64,000 nt of DNA from an uncultured Actinomycetes bacterium (lineage in GTDB: Bacteria > Actinomycetota > Actinomycetes > S36-B12 > CAIYMF01): contig CAVPNX010000023.1 of the NCBI GenBank assembly GCA_963706885.1, forward strand, positions 14,265-78,264, written 5' to 3'. Of the stretch, positions 13,875 to 61,508 are shown one piece after another. Each line of letters begins with the position of its first letter. The stretch's first letter is position 1. A program made the position numbers and the translations under genes. The notes beneath the pieces are model-generated. The model made no database searches. It was not told where the DNA came from and worked only from the letters and a program-made list of their open reading frames with translations.

Positions 13875-13915
13875 CGGTGATGCTCCTGTCGGCGCGGAGG
13901 GTCGGGGTGGGAGGC

Positions 13916-13971
13916 GGGGGCGTGGTGTCGGGCGCGGGGGCGTGGTGTCGGGTGCGGGGGCGTGGTGTCGG
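13916..13971. repeat. 20-bp tandem repeat (about 2.8 copies), unit CGTGGTGTCGGGYGCGGGGG
   Basis: Read directly at 13921-13940, 13941-13960 and a partial copy at 13961-13971. Lies in the actP-acs intergenic region. Confidence 0.7.
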
Positions 13972-25915: not shown

Positions 25916-26606
25916 ATGACGATCTCCCCCGAGGCCCGACCTGCCCTGGATGCCCTGCGCGCCCAGGTGGCCGCCCTGCACGCCGAGCTGACCCGCTACG
26001 AGCTGGTGATCTGGACCGCGGGCAACGTCTCGGCGCGGGTGCCCGGCGCATGACCTGATGGTCATCAAGCCCTCGGGCGTGGCCTACGACGAGCTGTCGG
26101 CCGAGCGGATGGTCGTCACCGACCTGTACGGCAACCTCGTCGAGGGCGACTCCGCCCCCTCGTCGGACACGGCCGCGCACGCCTACGTGTACCGGCACAT
26201 GCCCGAGGTCGGCGGCGTGGTGCACACGCACTCGACCTACGCCTGCGCCTGGGCGGCCCGCCGCGAGGCCATCCCCTGCGTGCTGACGATGATCGCCGAC
26301 GAGTTCGGCGGCGAGATCCCGATCGGCCCGTTCGCCCGGATCGGCGACGACTCGATCGGGGCGGGCATCGTCGACGTCCTGCGGGGCAGTCGCTCGCCGG
26401 CCGTCCTGATGGCCAACCACGGCCCGTTCACGATCGGCCCGGACGCACGCTCGGCGGTCAAGGCCGCCGTGATGCTCGAGGACGTCGCGCGCACGGTGCA
26501 CATCTCCCGCCAGCTCGGCGAACCCGTTCCCCTGGCCACCGAGGACATCGATGGCCTGTACGAGCGCTACCAGAACGTCTACGGACAGCACGGAGGACAG
26601 CGATGA
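25916..26606 (+). pseudogene. araD: L-ribulose-5-phosphate 4-epimerase, frame broken near 26045-26052
   Basis: ATG 25916 gives MTISPEARPALDALRAQVAALHAELTRYELVIWTAGNVSARVPGA* and then continues as (H)[15 protein letters not shown]... in ORF 26058-26606. Length 691 nt = 3n+1. Confidence 0.85.
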
Positions 26607-28109
26607 CCGCCCAGGCACCCGCCCAGATCTGGTTCCTCACCGGGAGCCAGACGCTCTACGGCGACGAGGTCCTGGCCCAGGTGGCCGAGCAGTCCGGTGA
26701 GATCGCCCGCACGCTCGATGCGTCGGACGCGATCCCCTTCGAGGTCGTGTTCAAGCCGGTGCTCAAGGAGGCCGACGCGATCCGGCGCACCATGATCGAG
26801 GCGAGCGCCGACGACGCCTGCATCGGCGTGATCGCGTGGATGCACACGTTCAGCCCGGCCAAGATGTGGATCTCGGGCCTGGAGGCGCTGCGCAAGCCGC
26901 TGCTGCACCTGCACACGCAGGCCAACCGCGACCTGCCGTGGGCGACCATCGACATGGACTTCATGAACCTCAACCAGGCCGCCCACGGCGACCGGGAGTT
27001 CGGCTTCGTGCAGACCCGGATGGGCATCGCGCGCAAGACCGTCGCCGGCCACGTCAGCGACCCCGTCGTCGCCGAGCGGATCGGGCAGTGGGCGCGGGCC
27101 GCAGCAGGGGCCGCCGCCATGCGCTCGATGCGCCTGGCCCGCTTCGGGGACAACATGCGCAACGTCGCCGTCACCGAGGGCGACAAGGTCGAGGCCGAGA
27201 TCCGCTTCGGGGTCTCGGTGAACACCTACGGCGTCAACGACCTGGTCGCGGTCGTCGACGCGGTGGCCGAGTCCGAGATCGATGCCCTGGTCGCCGAGTA
27301 CGCCGACCTGTACGACATCGCCCCCGAGCTGGCACGCCGGTGCTGCCCGCCACGATGCGCTGCGGTACGGCGCTCGCATCGAGGCGGGCCTGCGCCGGTT
27401 CCTCACCGACGGCGGCTTCACGGCCTTCACCTCGAACTTCGAGGACCTCGGCGGGCTGCGCCAGCTCCCCGGACTGGCCGTCCAGCGGCTGATGGCCGAC
27501 GGCTACGGGTTCGCCGGTGAGGGCGACTGGAAGACCGCGGTGATGGTCCGCACGTTCAAGGTGATGGCCCAGGGCCTGCCCGGCGGCACGTCCTTCATGG
27601 AGGACTACACCTACCACCTGGCCCCGGGCGCGGAGAAGATCCTCGGCGCGCACATGCTCGAGGTCTGCCCGTCGATCACCGACGAGCGCCCGCGCCTGGA
27701 GATCCATCCCCTGTCCATCGGCGGTCGGGAGGACCCGGTCCGCCTGGTCTTCACCGCCACGCCGGCCGCAGGGGTGGTCCTCGGCCTGTGCGATATGGGC
27801 GATAGGTTCCGTTTCGTGGCGAACGAGGTGCAGCTCGTCGCCCCCGACGCGGACCTGCCGAACCTGCCCGTCGCCCGCGCCGTGTGGCGCCCGGCGCCGG
27901 ACCTGCGCACCTCGGCCGAGGCGTGGATCACCGCCGGGGGCCCCCACCACACCGTGCTCACCACGGCCCTGTCCGCGGAGCACCTGTGGGACCTGTCGGA
28001 GATCGTCGGCACCGAGCTGGCGCTCATCGACAGCACAACAGACATCCGTCACTTCATCCAGGAGCGACGGTGGAGCCAGGCGTACTACCGCCTGGCTCTG
28101 GGCTTCTAG
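26603..28109 (+). pseudogene. araA: L-arabinose isomerase, frame broken near 27335-27340
   Basis: N-terminal frame reads [24 protein letters not shown]...[15 protein letters not shown]-terminal frame (ORF 27282-28109) reads ...[20 protein letters not shown]...EDYTYHL.... Length 1507 nt = 3n+1. Confidence 0.9.
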
Positions 28110-28175: not shown

Positions 28176-29303
28176 ATGAGGAAGTACGTATCCGCATTCG
28201 CAGCAGCGGGGCTCATCTTCAGCCTCGCCGCCTGCAGCAGCGGCAGCGAGACCGCCGCGCCCGCCGCGTCCGGCGAGGCGTCAGCTGCGGCCGGCGACTG
28301 CACCCCGGGCGAGAAGGGGACCATCGGTGTGGCCATGCCCACCAAGTCCTCGACCCGCTGGATCGCCGACGGCGACGCCATGGTGGAGCAGCTGACGGCC
28401 GCCGGCTACCAGGTCGACCTGCAGTACGCCGAGGACGACATCCCGACCCAGGTCTCCCAGGTGGAGAACATGGTCACCAAGGGCGTGCAGATGCTGGTCA
28501 TCGCCGCGATCGACGGCACGGCCCTGGGTGACATCCTGAACACGGCCGAGGAGTCCAACATCCCGGTCATCGCCTACGACCGGTTGATCCGCGAGTCGGA
28601 TGCCGTGGACTACTACTCCACGTTCGACAACTTCGGTGTGGGCGTGCTCCAGGCCGAGGCACTGGTTGCCGGCCTCGAGGCCACCGGCCGTGAGGCGCCG
28701 TACAACGTCGAGCTGTTCGCCGGGTCCCCCGACGACAACAACGCGACCTTCTTCTGGAACGGCGCCATGTCGGTCCTGCAGCCGCTGATCGACAAGGGCG
28801 ACATGGTGGTCGTCTCCGGCCAGACCGAGTTCGATCAGGCCGCGATCCTGCGGTGGGACCCGGCAACGGCCCAGAAGCGCATGGAGGACCTGCTGACCAG
28901 CGCGTACACCACCGAGACCGTTGACGGCGTCCTCTCGCCGTACGACGGCCTGTCGCTGGGCATCATCGCGGCGCTGAAGGCCAACGGCTACGGCGAGGGC
29001 GACAAGCCCCTGTCGGTCGTCACCGGCCAGGACGCCGAGATCCAGTCCGTCCAGTCCATCAACAAGGACGAGCAGAGCTCGACGGTGTTCAAGGACACCC
29101 GCGAGCTGGCGAAGGTCACGGTCGGGATGATCGAGGCGATCGGCAACTGCGAGGAGCCCGAGGTCAACGACACCGAGACCTACGACAACGGCGTCAAGGT
29201 CGTCCCGAGCTACCTGCTCAAGCCGATCACCGTGGTGAAGGCCAACGTCACCGAGGCCCTGGTCGACTCGGGCTACTACACCCAGGAAGAGATCGACGGC
29301 TGA
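28176..29303 (+). CDS. Multiple-sugar ABC transporter substrate-binding lipoprotein (ChvE-like)
   Basis: ORF track, 375 aa. Lipobox [29 protein letters not shown]...[24 protein letters not shown]...VIAYDRLI closely matches my memory of ChvE. Confidence 0.9.
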
Positions 29304-29449: not shown

Positions 29450-30981
29450 ATGAGCGGACCCATCCTCGAGATGCGCTCCATCACCAAGGAGTTCCCGGGG
29501 GTCAAGGCGCTGTCGGACGTGAACCTCACTGTCCACGACGGCGAGATCCACGCGATCTGCGGGGAGAACGGCGCCGGCAAGTCGACCCTGATGAAGGTCC
29601 TGTCCGGTGTGTACCCGCACGGCAGCTACGACGGCGAGATCATCTACGAGGGCCAGCCGGTGGAGTTCCGCGACATCCGGGCCAGTGAGCATGCCGGGAT
29701 CGTGATCATCCACCAGGAGCTGGCCCTGATCCCCGAGCTGTCGATCGCCGAGAACATCTTCCTCGGCAACGAGAACGTCTCCCGCGGGGTGATCTCCTGG
29801 GACCGGACCAACCGGGAGGCACACGACCTGCTCGTGCGCGTCGGGCTGTCGGAGAACCCGCTGACCCCGATCAAGCAGCTGGGCATCGGCAAGCAGCAGC
29901 TGGTCGAGATCGCCAAGGCCCTGTCCCGCAACGTCAAGCTGCTCATCCTCGACGAGCCGACCGCGGCGCTCAACGACGACGACTCCGCGCACCTGCTGAA
30001 CCTGCTGCGTGAGCTGAAGGCCAAGGGCATCACCAGCATCATGATCTCCCACAAGCTCAACGAGATCGCCGCCATCGCCGACAGCATCACGATCCTGCGC
30101 GACGGCCGGACGATCGAGACCCTCGAGGTCGCCGGTGGTGGGGTCGACGAGGACCGGATCATCCAGGGGATGGTCGGCCGGGACCTCGAGCACCGCTTCC
30201 CGCCCTACACCCCCGAGATCGGGGAGGTGCTCTTCGAGGTCAAGGGCTGGAACGTCTTCAGCCCGGTCGACCACTCGCGTCCGGTCGTCATCGATGCGAA
30301 CCTCGAGGTCCGTCGGGGCGAGATCGTCGGCATCGCCGGGCTCATGGGCGCCGGGCGCACCGAGCTCGCCCGATCGGTCTTCGGCAAGTCCTACGGAGCC
30401 CGGATCAGCGGCACGCTCGTCCTCGAGGGCAAGGAGCTCGAGCTGAACTCGGTCGCCGAGGCGATCGACTCGGGGTTGGCCTACGTGACGGAGGACCGCA
30501 AGTCCCTGGGACTGAACCTGCTCGATGACATCAAGACCTCCATCACCTCGGCGGGCATCCACAAGCTGCAGCGTGGCCTCACAGTCGACGAGAACGAGGA
30601 GGTCACGGTCGCCGAGGGCTTCCGCGGCCGCATGAACATCAAGGCACCGACCGTCGAGGCCAAGGTCGCCCAGCTCTCCGGGCGGCAACCAGCAGAAGGT
30701 CGTCCTGAGCAAGTGGATCTACACCGACGCGAAGGTGATGATCCTCGACGAGCCGACCCGTGGGATCGACGTCGGCGCCAAGTACGAGATCTACGGGTTC
30801 GTCCAGGAGATGGCCAAGGCAGGGCAACGCCGTCATCGTCATCTCCTCCGAGCTCCCTGAGCTGCTGGGGCTCTGCGACCGCATCTACACGCTGGCCGAG
30901 GGGCGGATCACAGCGGAGTTCGTGGCCAGCGAGGCCACCCAGGAGTCACTGATGCGCCAGATGACGACAAGCAGCCGGTGA
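29450..30981 (+). pseudogene. Sugar ABC transporter ATP-binding protein (GguA-like), two frame breaks (about 30680 and 30823)
   Basis: Frame A runs [15 protein letters not shown]...AQLSG. Frame B is [47 protein letters not shown]. Frame C (ORF 30760-30981) is [21 protein letters not shown].... Extra G in TCCGGGCGGC and GCAGGGCAAC. Length is 3n+2. Confidence 0.85.
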
Positions 30982-30985
30982 CAGC

Positions 30986-31117
30986 GATGACCTCCCCCGT
31001 CGAGCAGAAGGTGACACCGATGACCTCCCCTGACGAGCAGAAGGTGCCGGCGATGACCTCCCCCGACCAGCAGAAGGTGACACAGATGACCTCCCCCGTC
31101 GAGCAGAAGGTGACCCG
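30986..31117 (+). repeat. 33-bp tandem repeat x4 (last unit 32 bp), each unit carrying GAAGG + ATGACCTCCCC
   Basis: ATGs at 30987, 31020, 31053 and 31086 (33-nt spacing), then the permease ATG at 31118 (32 nt). The four units form a 44-codon uORF, 30987-31121. Confidence 0.9.
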
Positions 31118-32377
31118 ATGACCAGCCTGAAGACCTTGTTGAGCGGGAACATCCGCCAGTACGGGATGATCGGTGCGCTGATCGCCATCATCATCCTGTT
31201 CCAGATCCTGACCGACGGCATCCTGCTCAAGCCGCTGAACCTGACGAACCTGCTGACCCAGAACAGCTACATCCTCATCCTGGCCATCGGCATGGTGATG
31301 GTGATCATCGCCCGGCACATCGACCTCTCGGTCGGGTCGGTCGCCGCCTTCACCGGCGCGCTGGCCGTCATGATGATGGTCAAGTGGGACGTCCCATGGC
31401 CGCTCGCGGTGGTGCTCACACTGCTCGCCGGGGCCGCGATCGGCGCGTGGCACGGACTGTGGGTCGCCTACATGGGCATCCCCGCCTTCATCGTGACCCT
31501 GTCGAGCATGCTCATCTTCCGCGGCCTGACGCTGGTCGTCCTCCAGGGTGAGACCGTCGGGAACCTGCCCCCCGGCTTCGAGAAGCTCGGCAACGGGTTC
31601 CTCCCCGAGGTGGGGCCGGACACGGGCATGCACAACCTCACGATGCTGCTGGCCGTGCTGCTCTGCGTCTTCCTCGTCGCCGTGGACTTCCGCAAGCGCG
31701 CCTCGAAGCAGCGCTACAACTTCGCGGTGTCGTCGATGGGGGTGTTCCTGCTCAAGCAGGTGGTCGTCGTGGCCGTGATCATGGGGTTCGCGTACCTGCT
31801 TGCGCAGTACAAGGGCCTGCCGATCGTCGGGCTGCTGCTCTTCGCCCTCATCGGCATCTACAGCTTCATCATGAACCGCACGGTGTTCGGCCGGCACATC
31901 TACGCAATCGGGGGCAACTACCCGGCAGCCTCGATGTCCGGGGTGCGCACCAAGCGCGTCGACATCCTGGTCATGGCCAACATGGGCCTGCTCGCCGCAC
32001 TGGCCGGGATGGTGTTCGCCGCCCGGCTCACGGCCGCCAACCCGAAGGCCGGCGTCAACTTCGAGCTCGATGCGATCGCCGCCGCGTTCATCGGCGGTGC
32101 GGCGGTCACCGGTGGCGTCGGCACGGTCGTCGGCGCCATCGTCGGTGGCTTCTTCATGGGCGTCCTGAACAACGGCATGTCCCTGATGGGCGTCTCGGTC
32201 GACTGGCAGCAGACGATCAAGGGCCTGGTGCTGCTGTTCGCCGTCGCCTTCGACGTGTGGAACAAGCGCCGCTCGGCCGTCGGGGGCGCGGTGACCACCG
32301 TCCCCGTGGACGACGGAGCCTCCCAGGGGATGCCCGACCAGGACCAGGTGGACGAGTTGATCCCCGCTGAGGAGTAG
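31118..32377 (+). CDS. Sugar ABC transporter permease (GguB-like)
   Basis: ORF track, 419 aa, polytopic. ...RTVFGRHIYAIGGNYPAASMSGV.... Paralog of 2073-3365. Confidence 0.9.
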   Translation: MTSLKTLLSGNIRQYGMIGALIAIIILFQILTDGILLKPLNLTNLLTQNSYILILAIGMVMVIIARHIDLSVGSVAAFTGALAVMMMVKWDVPWPLAVVLTLLAGAAIGAWHGLWVAYMGIPAFIVTLSSMLIFRGLTLVVLQGETVGNLPPGFEKLGNGFLPEVGPDTGMHNLTMLLAVLLCVFLVAVDFRKRASKQRYNFAVSSMGVFLLKQVVVVAVIMGFAYLLAQYKGLPIVGLLLFALIGIYSFIMNRTVFGRHIYAIGGNYPAASMSGVRTKRVDILVMANMGLLAALAGMVFAARLTAANPKAGVNFELDAIAAAFIGGAAVTGGVGTVVGAIVGGFFMGVLNNGMSLMGVSVDWQQTIKGLVLLFAVAFDVWNKRRSAVGGAVTTVPVDDGASQGMPDQDQVDELIPAEE

Positions 32378-32466
32378 GCGCCTCTGCTCGATCGTCCGAG
32401 GGGCGGCGCGCGCAGTATCGTCGTACCTAGGCTGACCGATCCACTGGGGACGGAGAGGAGACTCCC

Positions 32467-33504
32467 ATGGCCACCGGGCCGAGCCGCCCGCCGGCGATGA
32501 CCGATGTGGCCCGCTTGGCCGGGGTCTCGCACCAGACGGTCTCGCGGGTGCTCAACGACCACCCGAACGTCAAGCAGCAGACCCGGCTGCGGGTCCTGGC
32601 GGCCATGCAGGAGCTGGGGTACCGGCCGAACCGGGCCGCCCGCGCGCTGGCCAGTGGGCGCAGCGACCAGATCGGCATCGTGGCCCAACCCTCGACCCTG
32701 TTCGGCCCCGCGTCACTGCTGTACGCACTCGAGGCGGCGGCGGTGCAGGCGGGGTACGGGGTGAGCGTGGCCAGTGTCGCGGCCCTGGACCGGGCCTCCA
32801 TCGAGGAGGCGGTCAACCGGCACCTCGACCAGCAGGTCGGGGGGATCGTGGTGATCGTGCCCGCCGTCTCGGCCGCGGCGGCCGTGCGCGAGGTCCCGGC
32901 CGACCTGCCGCTGGTCACGATCGGTGGTGACCGCAAGGAGGCGATCACCAGCGTCGGGATCGACCAGGTCCGCGGGGCGGTGGAGGCCACCCAGGCGTTG
33001 CTGGACGCCGGCCACCGGACGGTGTGGCACGTGTCCGGCCCCTCGGACGTCTTCGACAGCCTGGACCGGATCGAGGGCTGGCGGGCCACCCTGGAGCGGG
33101 CCGGGGCGGAGGTGCCGCCGGTGATCGCGGGGGACTGGTCGGCCGCTCGGGGGTACGAGGCCGGCCAGATGCTGGCCCGGATCGCCGACGTCACGGCCAT
33201 CTTCGCGGCCAACGACCAGACGGCCCTGGGGATCCTCCGGGCCCTGCACGAGCACGGCCTGCACGTTCCTGACGATGTCAGCCTCATCGGGTTCGACGAC
33301 CTCCCCGAGTCGGGCTTCTTCATCCCGCCGCTGACCACGGTCCGCCAGGGGTTCGAGGAGGTGGGCCGCCGCGCGCTGCGGATGGTCGTGGACCAGATGG
33401 AGGGCGAGCGCGAGATCCTCCACGAGCTCGTTCCCCCGGTGTTCGTCGCCCGGGACAGCGTTGCCCCGCCCCGCAGCCGGCGCAGCTCCGGGGTTCCGGC
33501 GTGA
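32467..33504 (+). CDS. LacI-family transcriptional regulator
   Basis: ORF track, 345 aa. HTH MTDVARLAGVSHQTVSRVLNDHPNVKQQTRLRVLAAMQELGYRPNRAARAL plus a periplasmic-binding-like effector domain. Confidence 0.9.
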   Translation: MATGPSRPPAMTDVARLAGVSHQTVSRVLNDHPNVKQQTRLRVLAAMQELGYRPNRAARALASGRSDQIGIVAQPSTLFGPASLLYALEAAAVQAGYGVSVASVAALDRASIEEAVNRHLDQQVGGIVVIVPAVSAAAAVREVPADLPLVTIGGDRKEAITSVGIDQVRGAVEATQALLDAGHRTVWHVSGPSDVFDSLDRIEGWRATLERAGAEVPPVIAGDWSAARGYEAGQMLARIADVTAIFAANDQTALGILRALHEHGLHVPDDVSLIGFDDLPESGFFIPPLTTVRQGFEEVGRRALRMVVDQMEGEREILHELVPPVFVARDSVAPPRSRRSSGVPA

Positions 33505-34298
33505 GCAGCGAGCCCGTGGAGCTCCGGGTGGACGGCGCGTGTGTGGTCCTCGACCCGCGGGACGGCGGGCGGATCACCTCGCTGGAGGTGGCCGGTGCCG
33601 AGCTGCTCGGCGGGGTGGGCACCGGGGTCATCGAGCATGGGTCGTTCCTGATGGCCCCGTGGGCCGGTCGCATCCGCGACGGCGTGCTGCATGTGGACGG
33701 GGTGTCGCACCAGCTGCCCACGGTCCGCACCCACCCGCACGCCGGTCACGGCCTGGTGATGGACCGGCCGTGGGAGGTCCTCGAGGCGTCGGCTGCGCAC
33801 CTGCGGATCACGTGCGACCTGGACTCCCGCTGGCCCTTCCCCGGCCACGTCGTCCAGGAGTTCCGGCTCGCGGGCGGCCACCTGGACCAGCAGGTCGAGG
33901 TGCACGCCGGGGATGCGCCGTTCCCGGCGACCGTGGGATGGCACCCGTGGTTCCGTCGCGCGCTGGCCTCCGGTGAGGTGGCCGAACTGGCCTTCGAGGC
34001 CCAGGGGATGCTCCAGCGCGACGCGGCGGGCATCCCGAGCGGTGACGTCGTGGCTGTGCCGCCGGGCCCGTGGGACGACTGCTTCGTCGGGGTCCGGTGG
34101 CCGATGACGATCACCTGGCCGGGAGCCGTCAGGCTGAGGATCAGCTCCGACACGGCGTTCGCCGTCGTGTACGACGAGCTCACCGAGGCGTTCTGCGTCG
34201 AGCCCCAGACGGGGCCGCCGGACGGGCCCAACACCTCGCCGCGGATGGTCCGCCCCGGTGATCCGCTGGTCGCCTCGACACGGTGGTCCTGGGACTGA
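33501..34298 (+). CDS. Aldose 1-epimerase (mutarotase) family protein
   Basis: ORF track, 265 aa. GTGA overlap with the LacI gene. Pattern ...GGRITSLEV.G.ELL...HGSFLMAPWAGRI...HG...PW... is typical of the family. Confidence 0.75.
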   Translation: MSSEPVELRVDGACVVLDPRDGGRITSLEVAGAELLGGVGTGVIEHGSFLMAPWAGRIRDGVLHVDGVSHQLPTVRTHPHAGHGLVMDRPWEVLEASAAHLRITCDLDSRWPFPGHVVQEFRLAGGHLDQQVEVHAGDAPFPATVGWHPWFRRALASGEVAELAFEAQGMLQRDAAGIPSGDVVAVPPGPWDDCFVGVRWPMTITWPGAVRLRISSDTAFAVVYDELTEAFCVEPQTGPPDGPNTSPRMVRPGDPLVASTRWSWD

Positions 34299-48201: not shown

Positions 48202-50115
48202 ATGTCGATGCTCGACGAGGTGGGCTCAGGACGACTGTCAACGGCAACCAGCGACGTGGGGGCTGCACGGGAGCGGGCGCGGGGTCACCGGCTGGGCCGG
48301 GTCGGCTTCGTCCTTGCGATCCCGATGGTCTGGATGTGGTGGCGGATCATCATCGGGCGTCCGGTCGACCTCACCGAGCTGTCGCTGCCGACCATCGACC
48401 CGTTCCTGCTGATCGTCGGCGTCTTCTTCGGGGTCATGATCGTCATGACCCTCGGGGTGACCCTGGTCGCGGGCCGCTCGCCGCACGTCACCTACCGCCC
48501 CGAGCAGATCGACGTCTCCCTGGCTGACGTCAAGGGCATCGACCTGGTCAAGGCCGACGTGGTGCGCTCCCTGAACCTCTTCCTGGCCAACCGTGCCTTC
48601 CGCGCCGAGATGGGCGGCACGCCGCGCCGGGGCCTGCTCTTCGAAGGCCCCCCCGGGACGGGCAAGACCTACCTGGCCAAGGCGATGGCCGCCGAGGCCG
48701 GCGTGCCGTTCCTGTTCGTGTCGGCCACGAGCTTCCAGTCCATGTACTACGGCGCGACCGCCCGCAAGATCCGCTCCTACTTCAAGGCCCTGCGCAAGGC
48801 CGCCCGCCAGGAGGGTGGCGCGATCGGCTTCATCGAGGAGATCGACGCCATCGCCATGGCCCGCTCCGGGGTCGGGTCGTCGGCCACGCCCATGGTCGCT
48901 GCCAACCTGACCGCGCCGATGTGCTGCGGCGGGCTCTCCGGGCTGCCGGCCACCTCGTTGTCGGCCGCCACCGGGGGAGGCTCCGGGACGGTCGTGTCCA
49001 CCATGATCTCCGAGGGCACCGGCGGCGTGGTCAACGAGCTGCTCGTCCAGATGCAGTCCTTCGACTCACCCGACGGCTGGCAGAAGGTCCAGGCCTGGTT
49101 CATCGACCGGATCAACCTGTTCCTGCCGGTCCACCGCCAGCTCCAGCGCCCCGTGCCGGCTGCCGCGACGATCCTGCTGATCGCCGCCACCAACCGCGCG
49201 GACAACCTCGACCCCGCGCTGCTGCGTCCGGGCCGCTTCGACCGTCGACTCAGCTTCGACCCGCCGTCCCGCGCCGGGCGCCTGGAGCTCATCGACCACT
49301 TCCTCGACCACAAGTCGCACGCGTCGGACCTCGACGATCCCGACGTGCGCGCCGGGATCGCGGCGGTCACCCAGGGCTACACGCCGGTCATGATCGAGCA
49401 CCTCCTCGACGAGGCGCTGGTCAACGCCCTGCGCCGCGGGGACGCCGCGATGAACCGTGCCGACGTCGAGTCCGCCCGGCTCACCGAGGAGGTCGGGATG
49501 GGCCAGCCGGTGGCCTACACGCCGCACGAGACCCGTCTCATCGCCACCCACGAGTCCGGTCACGCGACGATGGCCCACCTGGTCGCCCCGCACCGCCGGC
49601 TCGAGGTCCTGAGCATCATCAAGCGCCGCGACGCCCTGGGCATGCTCGCCCACGGCGACAGTGAGGACGTGTTCACCCGGTCGCGCAGCGAGATGCTCGC
49701 CCTGATCCAGATCGCCATGGGTGGGCAGGTCGCTGAGGAGCTGTTCTTCGGCGACATCTCCACCGGTCCCGGTGGGGACCTGTCCTACGCCACCACCGTG
49801 GCCGCGCAGATGGTCGGCGCGGTCGGCATGGGTGGGTCGCTGGTCAGCCTCGCCGCCGTCCAGCAGGGCGCGCTGGCTGACTCGAACCTCGTCGGCCGGG
49901 TGCTGTCCGACCCTGCCGGTCGGGCGGCGGTGGAGGCCATCCTGTCCGACCAGAAGCAGGTCGCCCGCGAGCTGCTGGACGCCAACCGGCACATCGTCGA
50001 GGCGTTGCGTGATGCGCTGATCGAGCGCCACGAGCTGGTCGGCCGGCAGATCCGCGAGGTCATCGACTCCGCGGCCCCGCAGGTCGACCTCCGGGTCCCG
50101 GCGCCGATCGGCTGA
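48202..50115 (+). CDS. FtsH-like AAA+ ATPase / M41 zinc metalloprotease paralog
   Basis: ATG 48202 lies 6 nt after AAGGAGG (codon 25 of ORF 48130-50115). 2 TM, GPPGTGKTYLAKA, GFIEEIDA, ATNRADNLDPALLRPGRFDR, HESGHA. Confidence 0.8.
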   Translation: MSMLDEVGSGRLSTATSDVGAARERARGHRLGRVGFVLAIPMVWMWWRIIIGRPVDLTELSLPTIDPFLLIVGVFFGVMIVMTLGVTLVAGRSPHVTYRPEQIDVSLADVKGIDLVKADVVRSLNLFLANRAFRAEMGGTPRRGLLFEGPPGTGKTYLAKAMAAEAGVPFLFVSATSFQSMYYGATARKIRSYFKALRKAARQEGGAIGFIEEIDAIAMARSGVGSSATPMVAANLTAPMCCGGLSGLPATSLSAATGGGSGTVVSTMISEGTGGVVNELLVQMQSFDSPDGWQKVQAWFIDRINLFLPVHRQLQRPVPAAATILLIAATNRADNLDPALLRPGRFDRRLSFDPPSRAGRLELIDHFLDHKSHASDLDDPDVRAGIAAVTQGYTPVMIEHLLDEALVNALRRGDAAMNRADVESARLTEEVGMGQPVAYTPHETRLIATHESGHATMAHLVAPHRRLEVLSIIKRRDALGMLAHGDSEDVFTRSRSEMLALIQIAMGGQVAEELFFGDISTGPGGDLSYATTVAAQMVGAVGMGGSLVSLAAVQQGALADSNLVGRVLSDPAGRAAVEAILSDQKQVARELLDANRHIVEALRDALIERHELVGRQIREVIDSAAPQVDLRVPAPIG

Positions 50116-50122
50116 GCGCCGC

Positions 50123-50183
50123 GGGGCTGTGCGCCGGAGGGGCTGGGCGCCGGTGGGGCTGGGCGCCGGTGGGGCTGGGCGCA
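50123..50183. repeat. 16-bp tandem repeat, about 3.8 copies, unit GGGGCTGGGCGCCGGT
   Basis: Copies at 50123, 50139, 50155 and 50171 (partial). Lies between the convergent FtsH-like and gltA genes. Confidence 0.7.
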
Positions 50184-50311
50184 GCGCGCGCCTGGCCGCC
50201 GGTGGGGCCGCTGCCCGCCCGGGCGCCCCCGGCCCGTCGGCCCGCCACCTGGGTGCCGGTGGGGGCCTCGGGCGCCGGAGCGTCGCGCGATCGAGCTCCC
50301 CGGCCCGTCCC

Positions 50312-52472: not shown

Positions 52473-52473
52473 C

Positions 52474-52580
52474 CCCACGCGCCCGCGGCGCCGCCCCCAC
52501 GCGCCCGCGGCGCCCCACCCACGCGTGCGCGGCGCCCGGCCCCGCGCCCCCGCAGCCCCGGCCCCGCGCCCCCGCAGCCC
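52474..52580 (+). repeat. C-rich tandem repeats (3 x about 21 bp CCCACGCGCCCGCGGCGCC-like, 2 x about 21 bp CGGCCCCGCGCCCCCGCAGCC)
   Basis: Read directly, immediately after the VOC stop. Includes the 27-mer 52511-52537 that is repeated exactly at 54381-54407. Confidence 0.7.
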
Positions 52581-52635
52581 CATGCCCGCCACCCTCCGCG
52601 CTGACCCCCGCCTTCCACACGCCTCACCCTGATCC

Positions 52636-60896: not shown

Positions 60897-60962
60897 GGTC
60901 GTCAGGTGGTGCCCGACGGGGGTCCGGTGTCGGGCGGTCCGGTGCCCGACGGGTGGTCGGCG

Positions 60963-61508
60963 TCAGGCGGTCCTGATCGCCGAGACGTCGAGCTGGATCT
61001 TGATCTTGTCGCTGACCAGCACGCCGCCGGCCTCGAGTGCGACGTTCCAGACCAGGCCGAACTCCTTGCGGGACAGCTCGGCCTCGCCCTCGAACCCGGC
61101 GCGCTCGTTGCCGAAGGGGTCGGTCACCACGCCGGTCGGCTCGAACTCGATCTCGACCGGACGGGTCACGCCCTTGATCGTCAGGTCGCCGAGCATGACG
61201 AACGAGTCGCCCTCGTGCTTGACCGTCGTGGTCGCGAAGGTCATCTCCTTGTTGACCTCGACGTCGAAGAAGTCGGCGCTGCGCAGGTGCGCGTCGCGGT
61301 CCGGCGACCCGGTGTTCACGGAGGCCAGCGCCACAGCCACCGAGGCGGTCGAGCCGCTCGGGTTGGCGGCGTCGATGACGATCGTGCCGGCGACGTCCTC
61401 GAACGCGCCGCGGACCTTGGTCACCATCGCGTGGCGGGCGACGAAGCCCACCCGGGTGTGGCTCGGGTCGATGGTCCAGGTGCCGTTGTAGGGGGTGTAG
61501 TCAGTCAT
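60963..61508 (-). CDS. YceI-family polyisoprenoid-binding protein
   Basis: Starts [22 protein letters not shown] (codon 17 of ORF 60963-61556) after AAGGAG, 181 aa. ...[13 protein letters not shown]... Confidence 0.85.

What the first reader, a model, noticed from the sequence alone, without database searches (positions are those of the whole stretch)
30986..31121. 33-bp x4 tandem repeat reiterates the permease RBS and start codon and forms a translationally coupled 44-codon uORF
Immediately after the ATPase stop (30979-30981) come four units of GATGACCTCCCCCGTCGAGCAGAAGGTGACACC. Each contains an SD-like GAAGG 8 nt before an ATG, and the same first three codons (Met-Thr-Ser) as the permease itself (ATGACCAGC at 31118).

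The first three units are 33 nt (11 codons) and in frame with each other. They give MTSPVEQKVTP/MTSPDEQKVPA/MTSPDQQKVTQ/MTSPVEQKVTR. The last unit is 32 nt, so this uORF ends at TGA 31119-31121, overlapping the permease ATG as ATGA.

The repeats could therefore act in three ways:
- as a stack of five alternative initiation sites;
- as a coupling uORF setting the ATPase:permease ratio;
- as a copy-number-variable (slipped-strand) switch.

With one more base, they would become a repetitive N-terminal extension of the permease. I know of no described equivalent in CUT2 transporters.
Basis: seen in the sequence. Interest (0 to 1): 0.62.

Follow-up and report, generated by a model that had tools for sequence, protein, structure and literature searches.

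The report
Reiterated gene junction in transporter operon
The short piece of DNA that holds the end of one sugar-transporter gene and the ribosome-binding site and start of the next has been copied head-to-tail up to four extra times in uncultured freshwater and soil actinobacteria; the copy number differs between populations, and every version still lets ribosomes pass from one gene to the next.

Summary
Four units (33, 33, 33 and 32 nt) lie between the gguA (ATPase) stop and the gguB (permease) start. Each unit carries AGGTGA/GAAGG and an ATG. Together they form a 44-codon ORF whose TGA overlaps the permease ATG (ATGA). Independent Illumina contigs confirm the 32-nt last unit.

The unit is a chimera of the first 13-15 nt of gguB and the last 17-19 nt of gguA plus spacer. 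It is therefore a head-to-tail duplication of the 32-nt gene junction. The closest single-copy relatives have only ...ATGACGACCAGCAGAAGGTGAcaccgATGACCAGC.

It is a true VNTR. Public metagenomes hold alleles with 4, 3 (two different deletions) and 2 units. They also hold a degenerate 59-nt form, and one or two 32-nt units in sister lineages. Every verified allele keeps a small ORF, or a relay of them, that ends on or 5 nt before the permease start.

Most likely the duplication is tolerated because it preserves translational coupling. It is not an ON/OFF switch, not a stack of permease starts, and not an N-terminal extension.

The closest known analogues are mycobacterial MIRUs and synthetic bicistronic designs. 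It is not a MIRU, because the unit derives from its own flanks and was not found elsewhere in the window.

Caveat: the window is an error-prone long-read assembly, and gguA carries two spurious 1-nt insertions.

The parts
28176..29303 (+). chvE, substrate-binding protein of the multiple-monosaccharide ABC transporter
   Evidence: NCBIfam NF040907 ChvE, 531 bits against a cut-off of 460
29450..30981 (+). gguA, fused two-domain ATPase. The window copy carries two spurious 1-nt insertions (G-runs at about 30680-82 and 30821-23). The true stop is TGA 30979-81.
   Evidence: Three-frame translation. After removing the two G's it scores 841.6 bits against NF040905 GguA, cut-off 810. Illumina contigs lack the extra bases.
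30961..30986 (+). 'Unit 0': the gguA tail ATGACGACAAGCAGCCGGTGA plus the 5-nt spacer. It is the ancestral template for the 3' part of the repeat unit.
   Evidence: TRF array begins at 30965; comparison with single-copy relatives
30978..30980 (+). GTG overlapping the gguA stop (GTGA), in frame with the array ORF
   Evidence: the ORF listing ORF 30978..31121
30987..31019 (+). Unit 1 (33 nt), MTSPVEQKVTP; SD AGGTGA at 31009-14
   Evidence: missing in the alleles of X3 and X15
31020..31052 (+). Unit 2 (33 nt), MTSPDEQKVPA; SD AGGTGC at 31042-47
   Evidence: missing in the alleles of X4, X5, X6, X11, X13 and X16
31053..31085 (+). Unit 3 (33 nt), MTSPDQQKVTQ; SD AGGTGA at 31075-80
31086..31117 (+). 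Unit 4 (32 nt; spacer CCCG instead of CACCG); SD AGGTGA at 31108-13. This is the working ribosome-binding site of gguB.
   Evidence: confirmed without indel by Illumina contigs
30987..31121 (+). Array ORF: 44 codons plus TGA, which overlaps the gguB ATG as ATGA
31118..32377 (+). gguB, permease (419 aa)
   Evidence: NF040906 GguB, 554.8 bits against a cut-off of 450. The start aligns with residue 1 of the relatives.

Best explanation
The array is a young, still-changing minisatellite (VNTR). It was made by head-to-tail duplication of the 32-nt gguA/gguB junction: the last codons and stop of gguA, the Shine-Dalgarno sequence embedded in them, the spacer, and the first 4-5 codons of gguB.

Because every copy brings its own stop, SD and start, the insertion does not break the hand-over of ribosomes from ATPase to permease.

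- In the window lineage, a +1 change made the units 33 nt. They therefore read through into one another as a single 44-codon ORF.
- That ORF starts 5 nt after the gguA stop (or overlaps it as GTGA).
- A 1-nt shorter last spacer makes it terminate on the gguB start (ATGA).

Ribosomes that finish gguA, or that load at any unit's SD/ATG, are thus delivered to the gguB start by termination-reinitiation. The last unit's SD also allows direct initiation. The encoded peptide itself has no function.

Copy number drifts by unit slippage or unequal exchange. The effect on expression is probably small, at most a quantitative change in the permease:ATPase ratio.

Shown: the structure, its origin, the polymorphism, and preservation of an ORF relay in every verified allele. 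Inferred: that the small ORF is translated and that coupling operates.
For: **Origin**
- The closest single-copy relatives (L001-L003, L006, L081; 81-95% aa identity) have ...ATGAC(G/C)AC(C/A/G)AGCAGAAGGTGAcac(c/g)gATG.... That is, gguA ends HMTTSRR*, followed by 5 nt and then the gguB ATG.
- A chimera of gguB nt 1-13/15 plus the last 17-19 nt of gguA and spacer predicts a 32-nt unit. That prediction matches the real 32-nt units at 27-29 of 32 positions with no gap.
- A plain copy of the gguA tail needs a 6-8-nt gap.

**Polymorphism** (Illumina contigs)
- Consistent with 4 units: X1, X2.
- 3 units, U1 missing: X3, X15.
- 3 units, U2 missing: X4, X5, X6, X11, X13, X16.
- 2 units: X7, and RNA-seq run X25.
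- X5 holds more than one form.
- A diverged lineage has a 59-nt degenerate form (L161, X9, X18).
- L005 has one 32-nt unit encoding MTIVTSRR*, confirmed by X68, X70 and X71.
- The L004 lineage has 0 extra units (X47, X61) or two 32-nt units (X44, X46, X48, X50) encoding MTILTSRR* and MTSQTSRR*.

**Coupling geometry is kept in all verified alleles**
- Array lengths of 131, 98, 65 and 59 nt are all 2 mod 3, which gives the ATGA overlap.
- The 32-nt units give 8-codon ORFs that stop 5 nt before the next ATG, as in the ancestral junction.
- Across 139 gguA-gguB junctions the stop-to-start gap is mostly -11 to +8. The window's +136 is the extreme.
- Coupling is reported to be efficient at -4 to +3 nt and largely lost beyond 30-40 nt (PMC12548453). 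A bridging ORF would therefore be needed to keep it.

**The peptide is not conserved**
- Unit differences and polymorphisms are mostly non-synonymous: 7 of the 8 polymorphisms read.
- The peptides differ between alleles.

**Signals are conserved**
- All 9 variable unit positions lie outside ATGACC (1-6) and CAGAAGGTG (19-27). Hypergeometric P = 0.0013.

**Other**
- The array RNA is unstructured (z = +1.66; 196 of 200 shuffles fold at least as well).
- No promoter, terminator or Rfam match was found.
- An RNA-seq contig spans the gguA end, the array and gguB.
Against: - There is no direct evidence of translation of the small ORF, or of coupling, in this uncultured organism.
- ORF continuity over 20-44 codons in 65-70% GC DNA is not by itself improbable. 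It is also partly built in by the way the unit arose.
- In the degenerate 59-nt allele (L161) an internal SD and ATG have decayed. Internal initiation sites are therefore not strictly maintained.
- The last unit has a good SD, so gguB could be translated without any coupling.
- The RNA-seq contig could be contaminating DNA.
- Metagenomes mix strains, so within-clone instability is not shown.
Confidence: 0.6

Rival explanations
1. Inert VNTR spacer. The repeat is a neutral junction duplication, but the small ORF is irrelevant. gguB is translated only by direct initiation at the SD of the last unit, and coupling to gguA has simply been lost without cost.
For: - The last unit keeps AGGTGA 4 nt before the ATG.
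- The region is unstructured, so the SD is accessible.
- Internal signals decay in the older 59-nt allele.
- The peptide is not conserved.
Against: - All verified alleles keep an ORF or ORF relay that ends at -4 or +5 relative to the gguB start.
- ATGACC and the SD core are invariant across units and alleles (P = 0.0013).
- Tight stop-start spacing is the rule in this operon family.
Confidence: 0.25
2. Selected translational rheostat. Each extra SD/ATG loads more ribosomes, which all terminate on the gguB start. Copy number would then tune the permease:ATPase ratio upward. From general knowledge of CUT2 systems such as RbsA1C2, one fused ATPase serves two permease subunits.
For: - Copy number differs among near-identical populations.
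- SD and ATG are invariant in every unit of the window lineage.
- The geometry funnels all initiations to the ATGA overlap.
Against: - No expression data exist.
- The closest relatives do without any repeat.
- Only this clade, out of 140 junctions, has it.
- No association of copy number with habitat was seen.
Confidence: 0.12
3. ON/OFF phase-variation (contingency) locus that works by slipped-strand frame changes.
For: A tandem repeat sits next to a start codon, and copy number is variable.
Against: - Changes are whole 33-nt units, so the frame and the ATGA overlap are unchanged.
- The repeat lies outside the gguB coding frame.
Confidence: 0.02
4. Artefact or mis-read. Either the repeat or its 32-nt last unit is an error of a long-read assembly, and the array is really an in-frame repetitive N-terminal extension of the permease.
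For: - The window has 1-nt insertion errors nearby.
- Many actinobacterial GguB homologues have natural 20-45-aa P/T/S/Q-rich N-terminal extensions.
- The L004 MAG shows one 33-nt unit in frame with gguB.
Against: - Illumina contigs from at least 9 samples reproduce U4 and the start without indel.
- The permease frame has a stop in U2 and no start codon after it.
- L004's in-frame unit is not reproduced by any short-read contig. Those contigs show 0 or two 32-nt units.
- A protein search with the fused sequence found no permease carrying these repeats.
Confidence: 0.01

Closest known systems
MIRU (mycobacterial interspersed repetitive units; Supply et al. 1997, as summarised in PMC12548453)
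   Same: - A tandem repeat in an actinobacterium lying between co-oriented genes of an operon.
- It contains an ORF in the same direction, coupled to the downstream gene at -4 nt.
- Copy number is polymorphic between strains.
- It is thought to be tolerated because coupling keeps downstream expression intact.
   Different: - MIRUs are a dispersed, apparently mobile family found at many loci, with units of about 40-100 bp unrelated to their flanks.
- Here the unit (32-33 nt) is a chimera of the two flanking genes' own ends.
- It was found at this one junction only, and in one small clade.
Synthetic bicistronic design / leader-ORF 'ribosome delivery' (reviewed in PMC12548453)
   Same: - A short leader ORF has its own SD and start.
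- The SD of the main gene is embedded in its coding sequence.
- Its stop overlaps the main gene's start.
   Different: - This one is natural, reiterated 2-4 times, and copy-number variable.
- It sits between two genes rather than at a 5' end.
Ordinary NTGA / short-spacer translational coupling of ABC-transporter genes
   Same: The single-copy relatives have exactly this: the gguA TGA is overlapped by an in-frame GTG and lies 5 nt from the gguB ATG.
   Different: In the window the junction has been multiplied, so coupling (if kept) must pass through an intermediate ORF.
Simple-sequence contingency loci (phase variation)
   Same: A repeat tract near a translation start, changing in length by slippage.
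   Different: The unit length keeps the frame, so no ON/OFF outcome is possible.

Membership tests
ChvE-GguA-GguB multiple-monosaccharide (CUT2) ABC transporter operon | All three proteins reach the curated equivalog cut-offs, and the genes lie in the order SBP-ATPase-permease | tested here: met
   ChvE 531/460 bits, GguA 842/810 bits (after removing two spurious G's), GguB 555/450 bits. araA lies upstream.
MIRU-type intercistronic VNTR | Tandem repeat between co-oriented genes of one operon | tested here: met
MIRU-type intercistronic VNTR | Internal ORF in the same direction, whose ends overlap or abut the stop and start of the flanking genes | tested here: met
   GTGA at 30978-81 (or ATG 5 nt after the stop); ATGA at 31118-21
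MIRU-type intercistronic VNTR | Copy-number polymorphism among strains | tested here: met
   4, 3, 3' and 2 units in near-identical strains
MIRU-type intercistronic VNTR | Dispersed family: the same unit at many loci, unrelated to local flanks (mobile) | tested here: not met
   - No other copy in 64 kb.
- The unit is a chimera of the gguB 5' end and the gguA 3' end.
- It is absent from 130+ other gguA-gguB junctions.
- The rest of the genome was not available.
Translationally coupled leader ORF (bicistronic-design-like) | Short ORF with its own SD and start; the downstream gene's SD lies inside it; its stop lies at -4..+5 of the downstream start | tested here: met
   The same geometry is seen in alleles L161, L005 and X44.
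Translationally coupled leader ORF (bicistronic-design-like) | The ORF is translated, and downstream expression depends on it | not testable with these tools
   The only available evidence is an RNA-seq contig spanning the junction. No ribosome profiling or proteomics exists.
Phase-variable contingency locus | Repeat-number changes shift a reading frame or promoter spacing between ON and OFF | tested here: not met
   Observed changes are +/-33 or 66 nt and preserve the frame. No promoter is present.

The most novel reading that the evidence does not exclude
The reiterated stop/SD/start module is a selected, copy-number-tunable 'ribosome-loading ramp'. Each unit adds an independent initiation site, and all the resulting ribosomes terminate on the permease start. 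Populations could then adjust the permease:ATPase ratio of a sugar transporter simply by gaining or losing 33-nt units. This would be a natural VNTR-based translational rheostat, built from the operon's own junction.
Probability: 0.12. Interest if true: 0.65.

Novelty: new variant of a known kind. Interest (0 to 1): 0.42.

Why it matters
It is a clean natural example of how an operon junction can be duplicated without breaking expression. Each copy carries stop, SD and start, so the insertion repairs its own translational coupling.

It gives a local-duplication route to MIRU-like intercistronic VNTRs. It also offers a ready-made allelic series (0, 1, 2, 3 and 4 units; 32- versus 33-nt units) for testing how relay ORFs and reiterated ribosome-binding sites affect the expression ratios of ABC-transporter subunits.

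Practically, it shows that single-base frame arguments taken from this window need short-read confirmation. The neighbouring ATPase has two spurious frameshifts.

Tried and rejected
- **Exact-protein look-up of the permease** found nothing.
- **The metagenome-contig scan** gave only one close relative, which is single-copy.
- **A protein search with the array peptide fused to the permease N-terminus** found no homologue carrying the repeats. It found only unrelated natural N-terminal extensions, one frameshifted close relative (P0001) and one read-through gene call (P0003).
- **RNA-level readings** (attenuator, terminator, riboswitch or sRNA) were rejected. The array folds worse than shuffles, has no terminator or promoter, and has no Rfam match.
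- **A plain copy of the gguA tail as the origin of the unit** was rejected in favour of the gguB-5'/gguA-3' chimera, because it needs a 6-8-nt gap.
- **L114 (+59 gap) and L100 (14-nt repeat)** were examined as possible independent cases. Both are ordinary.
- **L004's in-frame 33-nt unit** could not be verified with short-read contigs.
- **Literature searches** for a described junction-duplication VNTR found only the MIRU analogy.

Full report
**1. What is in the sequence**

TRF reports one array at 30965-31123 with period 33, 4.8 copies, 84% matches and score 227. It is the strongest tandem repeat in the whole window.

Read in register:
- U1 30987-31019, ATGACCTCCCCCGTCGAGCAGAAGGTGACACCG
- U2 31020-31052
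- U3 31053-31085
- U4 31086-31117, 32 nt, with spacer CCCG instead of CACCG

They are preceded by a degenerate 'unit 0' (30961-30986). Unit 0 is the end of the ATPase gene (…QMTTSSR*, TGA 30979-81) plus a 5-nt spacer.

The unit has 3 matches at <=3 mismatches, against none in 100 shuffles, and no copy elsewhere in the 64 kb.

Each unit has GAAGG 8 nt (AGGTGA 5 nt) before the next ATG. The ORF from ATG 30987 runs 44 codons to TGA 31119-21, which overlaps the permease ATG 31118 (ATGA). The ORF listing extends it to a GTG at 30978 that overlaps the ATPase stop as GTGA.

**2. Context**

The three genes are the ChvE/GguA/GguB multiple-monosaccharide ABC transporter. All three are NCBIfam equivalogs above cut-off, and araA lies upstream.

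The window's gguA reads in three frames. One extra G in tccGGGCggc (about 30681) breaks LSGGNQQK. One extra G in gcaGGGCaac (about 30822) breaks [11 protein letters not shown]. Illumina-derived Logan contigs from other samples lack exactly these bases.

The nearest relatives are long-read 'MFD' MAGs of uncultured Actinomycetes. The window is therefore an error-prone long-read assembly, and frame arguments needed independent confirmation.

**3. Confirmation with short reads**

Contigs from X1, X2, X3, X4, X5, X6, X7, X13 and X15 cross U4 and the gguB start with no indel. The 32-nt last unit and the ATGA overlap are real.

In the permease frame there is a TGA at 31031, and no ATG, GTG, TTG or CTG between it and 31118. 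The array therefore cannot be an N-terminal extension here.

**4. Origin**

The closest single-copy relatives are L001, L002, L003, L006 and L081 (81-95% aa identity in GguB). They read …cacATGACGACCAGCAGAAGGTGAcaccgATGACCAGCCTGAAG…. In other words, GguA ends HMTTSRR*, its last codons contain the SD for gguB, and 5 nt later gguB starts. A GTG overlapping the TGA is also in frame with gguB.

A head-to-tail duplication of the 32 nt spanning this junction creates a new unit. That unit is made of gguB nt 1-13/15 plus the last 17-19 nt of gguA and spacer.
- This predicted unit matches the real 32-nt units of sister lineages at 27-29 of 32 positions without a gap.
- It matches the window units at 26-27 of 33 positions with one or two gaps.
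- A plain copy of the gguA tail needs a 6-8-nt gap.
- The extra hexamer A(T/G)CCTG in the units corresponds to gguB codons 3-4.

The repeat is thus the operon's own junction, multiplied.

**5. Alleles**

| Lineage | Allele | Where seen |
|---|---|---|
| Window (flanks >=99% identical) | 4 units (consistent with) | X1, X2: all three inter-unit junctions present, contigs abut at 31037/38 |
| Window | 3 units, U1 missing | X3, X15 |
| Window | 3 units, U2 missing | X4, X5, X6, X11, X13, X16 |
| Window | 2 units (U3-U4) | X7, and an RNA-seq contig of X25 running from the gguA end into gguB |
| Diverged sister (L161, X9, X18) | Degenerate 59-nt form (28+31 nt); 20-codon ORF MTRVTADDTDDQTHEQKVTR*; same ATGA overlap; in L161 an internal SD and ATG have decayed | L161, X9, X18 |
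| L005 | One 32-nt unit giving MTIVTSRR*, with the stop 5 nt before the gguB ATG | Reproduced exactly or nearly so (at most 1 mismatch, no indel) by X68, X70, X71 |
| L004 | Single-copy | X47, X61 |
| L004 | Two 32-nt units (MTILTSRR*, MTSQTSRR*) | X44, X46, X48, X50 |

- X5 holds more than one form.
- The novel junction k-mers in these contigs cannot arise from the window's arrangement, so the window-lineage alleles are real.
- The L004 MAG's own single 33-nt unit, which would be in frame with gguB, is not reproduced by any short-read contig and remains unverified.

Among 140 gguA-gguB junctions only this clade has the repeat. The window's stop-to-start gap of +136 is the extreme of a distribution centred on -11 to +8.

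**6. What the alleles have in common**

The 33-nt-unit arrays measure 131, 98 and 65 nt, and the degenerate form 59 nt. All are 2 mod 3, so the ORF that starts just after the gguA stop ends on the gguB start.

The 32-nt units instead form a relay of 8-codon ORFs. Each stops at the TGA inside the SD, 5 nt before the next ATG, which is the ancestral geometry repeated.

No verified allele leaves a long untranslated gap. Part of this is built in by the way the unit arose, so it is suggestive of selection for coupling rather than proof.

Variation among units and alleles hits unit positions 7, 12, 14, 16, 18, 28, 30, 31 and 32. It never hits ATGACC (1-6) or CAGAAGGTG (19-27); P = 0.0013 for that clustering. 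Of the 8 polymorphisms listed inside the array are non-synonymous. The initiation signals look constrained, and the peptide does not.

**7. Mechanism**

The array RNA is less structured than shuffles (z = +1.66). It has no promoter-like or terminator-like site and no Rfam match. RNA-level regulation is therefore unlikely.

According to the review PMC12548453:
- coupling is efficient at -4 to +3 nt and mostly lost beyond 30-40 nt;
- short ORFs can act solely to deliver ribosomes to a downstream gene;
- MIRUs are thought to be tolerated for exactly this reason.

I therefore propose the following sequence (inferred, not shown). Ribosomes terminating gguA reinitiate at GTG 30978 or ATG 30987, or new ribosomes load at any unit's SD/ATG. 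They translate the array ORF, terminate at 31119-21, and reinitiate at 31118. The last SD also permits direct initiation.

Copy number changes by slippage or unequal exchange between units. Because these changes are in-frame for the array ORF, they cannot switch gguB off. At most they modulate the permease:ATPase ratio.

From general knowledge of CUT2 systems (RbsA1C2), two permease subunits are needed per fused ATPase. This gives a conceivable benefit to extra loading sites, but I rate that adaptive reading at only about 0.12.

**8. Comparison with known systems**

It works like a MIRU and like a synthetic bicistronic design. It is not a MIRU family member. The unit derives from its own flanks, is 32-33 nt, and is not dispersed as far as the 64-kb window and 140 related junctions show. 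It is not a contingency locus.

My searches of the paper library found no description of a VNTR made from a reiterated stop/SD/start junction. That is absence in a limited search, not proof of novelty.

**9. Verdict**

- Observation: confirmed.
- Interpretation: partly supported. The coupling ORF is plausible and the copy-number variation is demonstrated. The switch, the stack of permease starts and 'no equivalent' are not supported.
- Novelty: new variant of a known kind.
- Interest: moderate (0.42). The case is tidy and well documented, with a natural allelic series, but its functional consequence is probably small.

Noticed in passing
window 30680-30682 and 30821-30823: Two 1-nt insertions (an extra G in each G-run) split gguA into three frames. 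Illumina contigs from other samples lack them, so they are errors of this long-read assembly rather than a pseudogene.
   Followed up: yes
window 26603-28109 (break near 27330-27350): araA (L-arabinose isomerase) is split into two overlapping ORFs in different frames. The first ORF matches only profile positions 3-244 of 499. This is probably another single-base assembly error. It was not checked against reads.
   Followed up: partly
window 32467-34298 (+ strand): Two consecutive + strand ORFs (345 and 265 aa) sit where relative L161 has one 609-aa LacI / periplasmic-binding / aldose-epimerase fusion gene. This is probably a further frameshift near 33500. The 505-aa minus-strand ORF at 32427-33944 has no family match and is likely spurious.
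   Followed up: no
L161 3001-4256: In the related long-read contig, gguB itself is split into 206-aa and 230-aa gene calls (P0001 goes out of frame after about 150 aa). blastn between the window and L002, L003 and L161 shows 21-40 gap openings per 3-4 kb. Indel noise is therefore general in these MAGs.
   Followed up: partly
L001-L003, L006, L081 junctions (e.g. L003 3990-4003): In single-copy relatives a GTG overlaps the gguA TGA (GTGA) and is in frame with the annotated gguB ATG three codons downstream. The real gguB start there may be the -4 overlapping GTG.
   Followed up: no
P0003: A gene call from another actinobacterial contig reads straight from the GguA tail (…MRYMTKSNRTRGRT) into GguB (MNSMKGLLRGN…). 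This is either a natural ATPase-permease read-through or fusion, or another frameshift artefact.
   Followed up: no
P0033, P0038, P0053, P0068, P0119 and others: Many actinobacterial GguB homologues carry natural 20-45-aa N-terminal extensions rich in P/T/S/A/Q. The N-terminus of this permease family evidently tolerates disordered additions.
   Followed up: no
window 13887-13971; 50100-50208; 52473-52587; 60908-60973: Other G+C-rich tandem repeats: periods 20/40, 16, 22 and 33 nt, with 2-6 copies. They are unrelated in sequence to the junction repeat, and their gene context was not examined.
   Followed up: no
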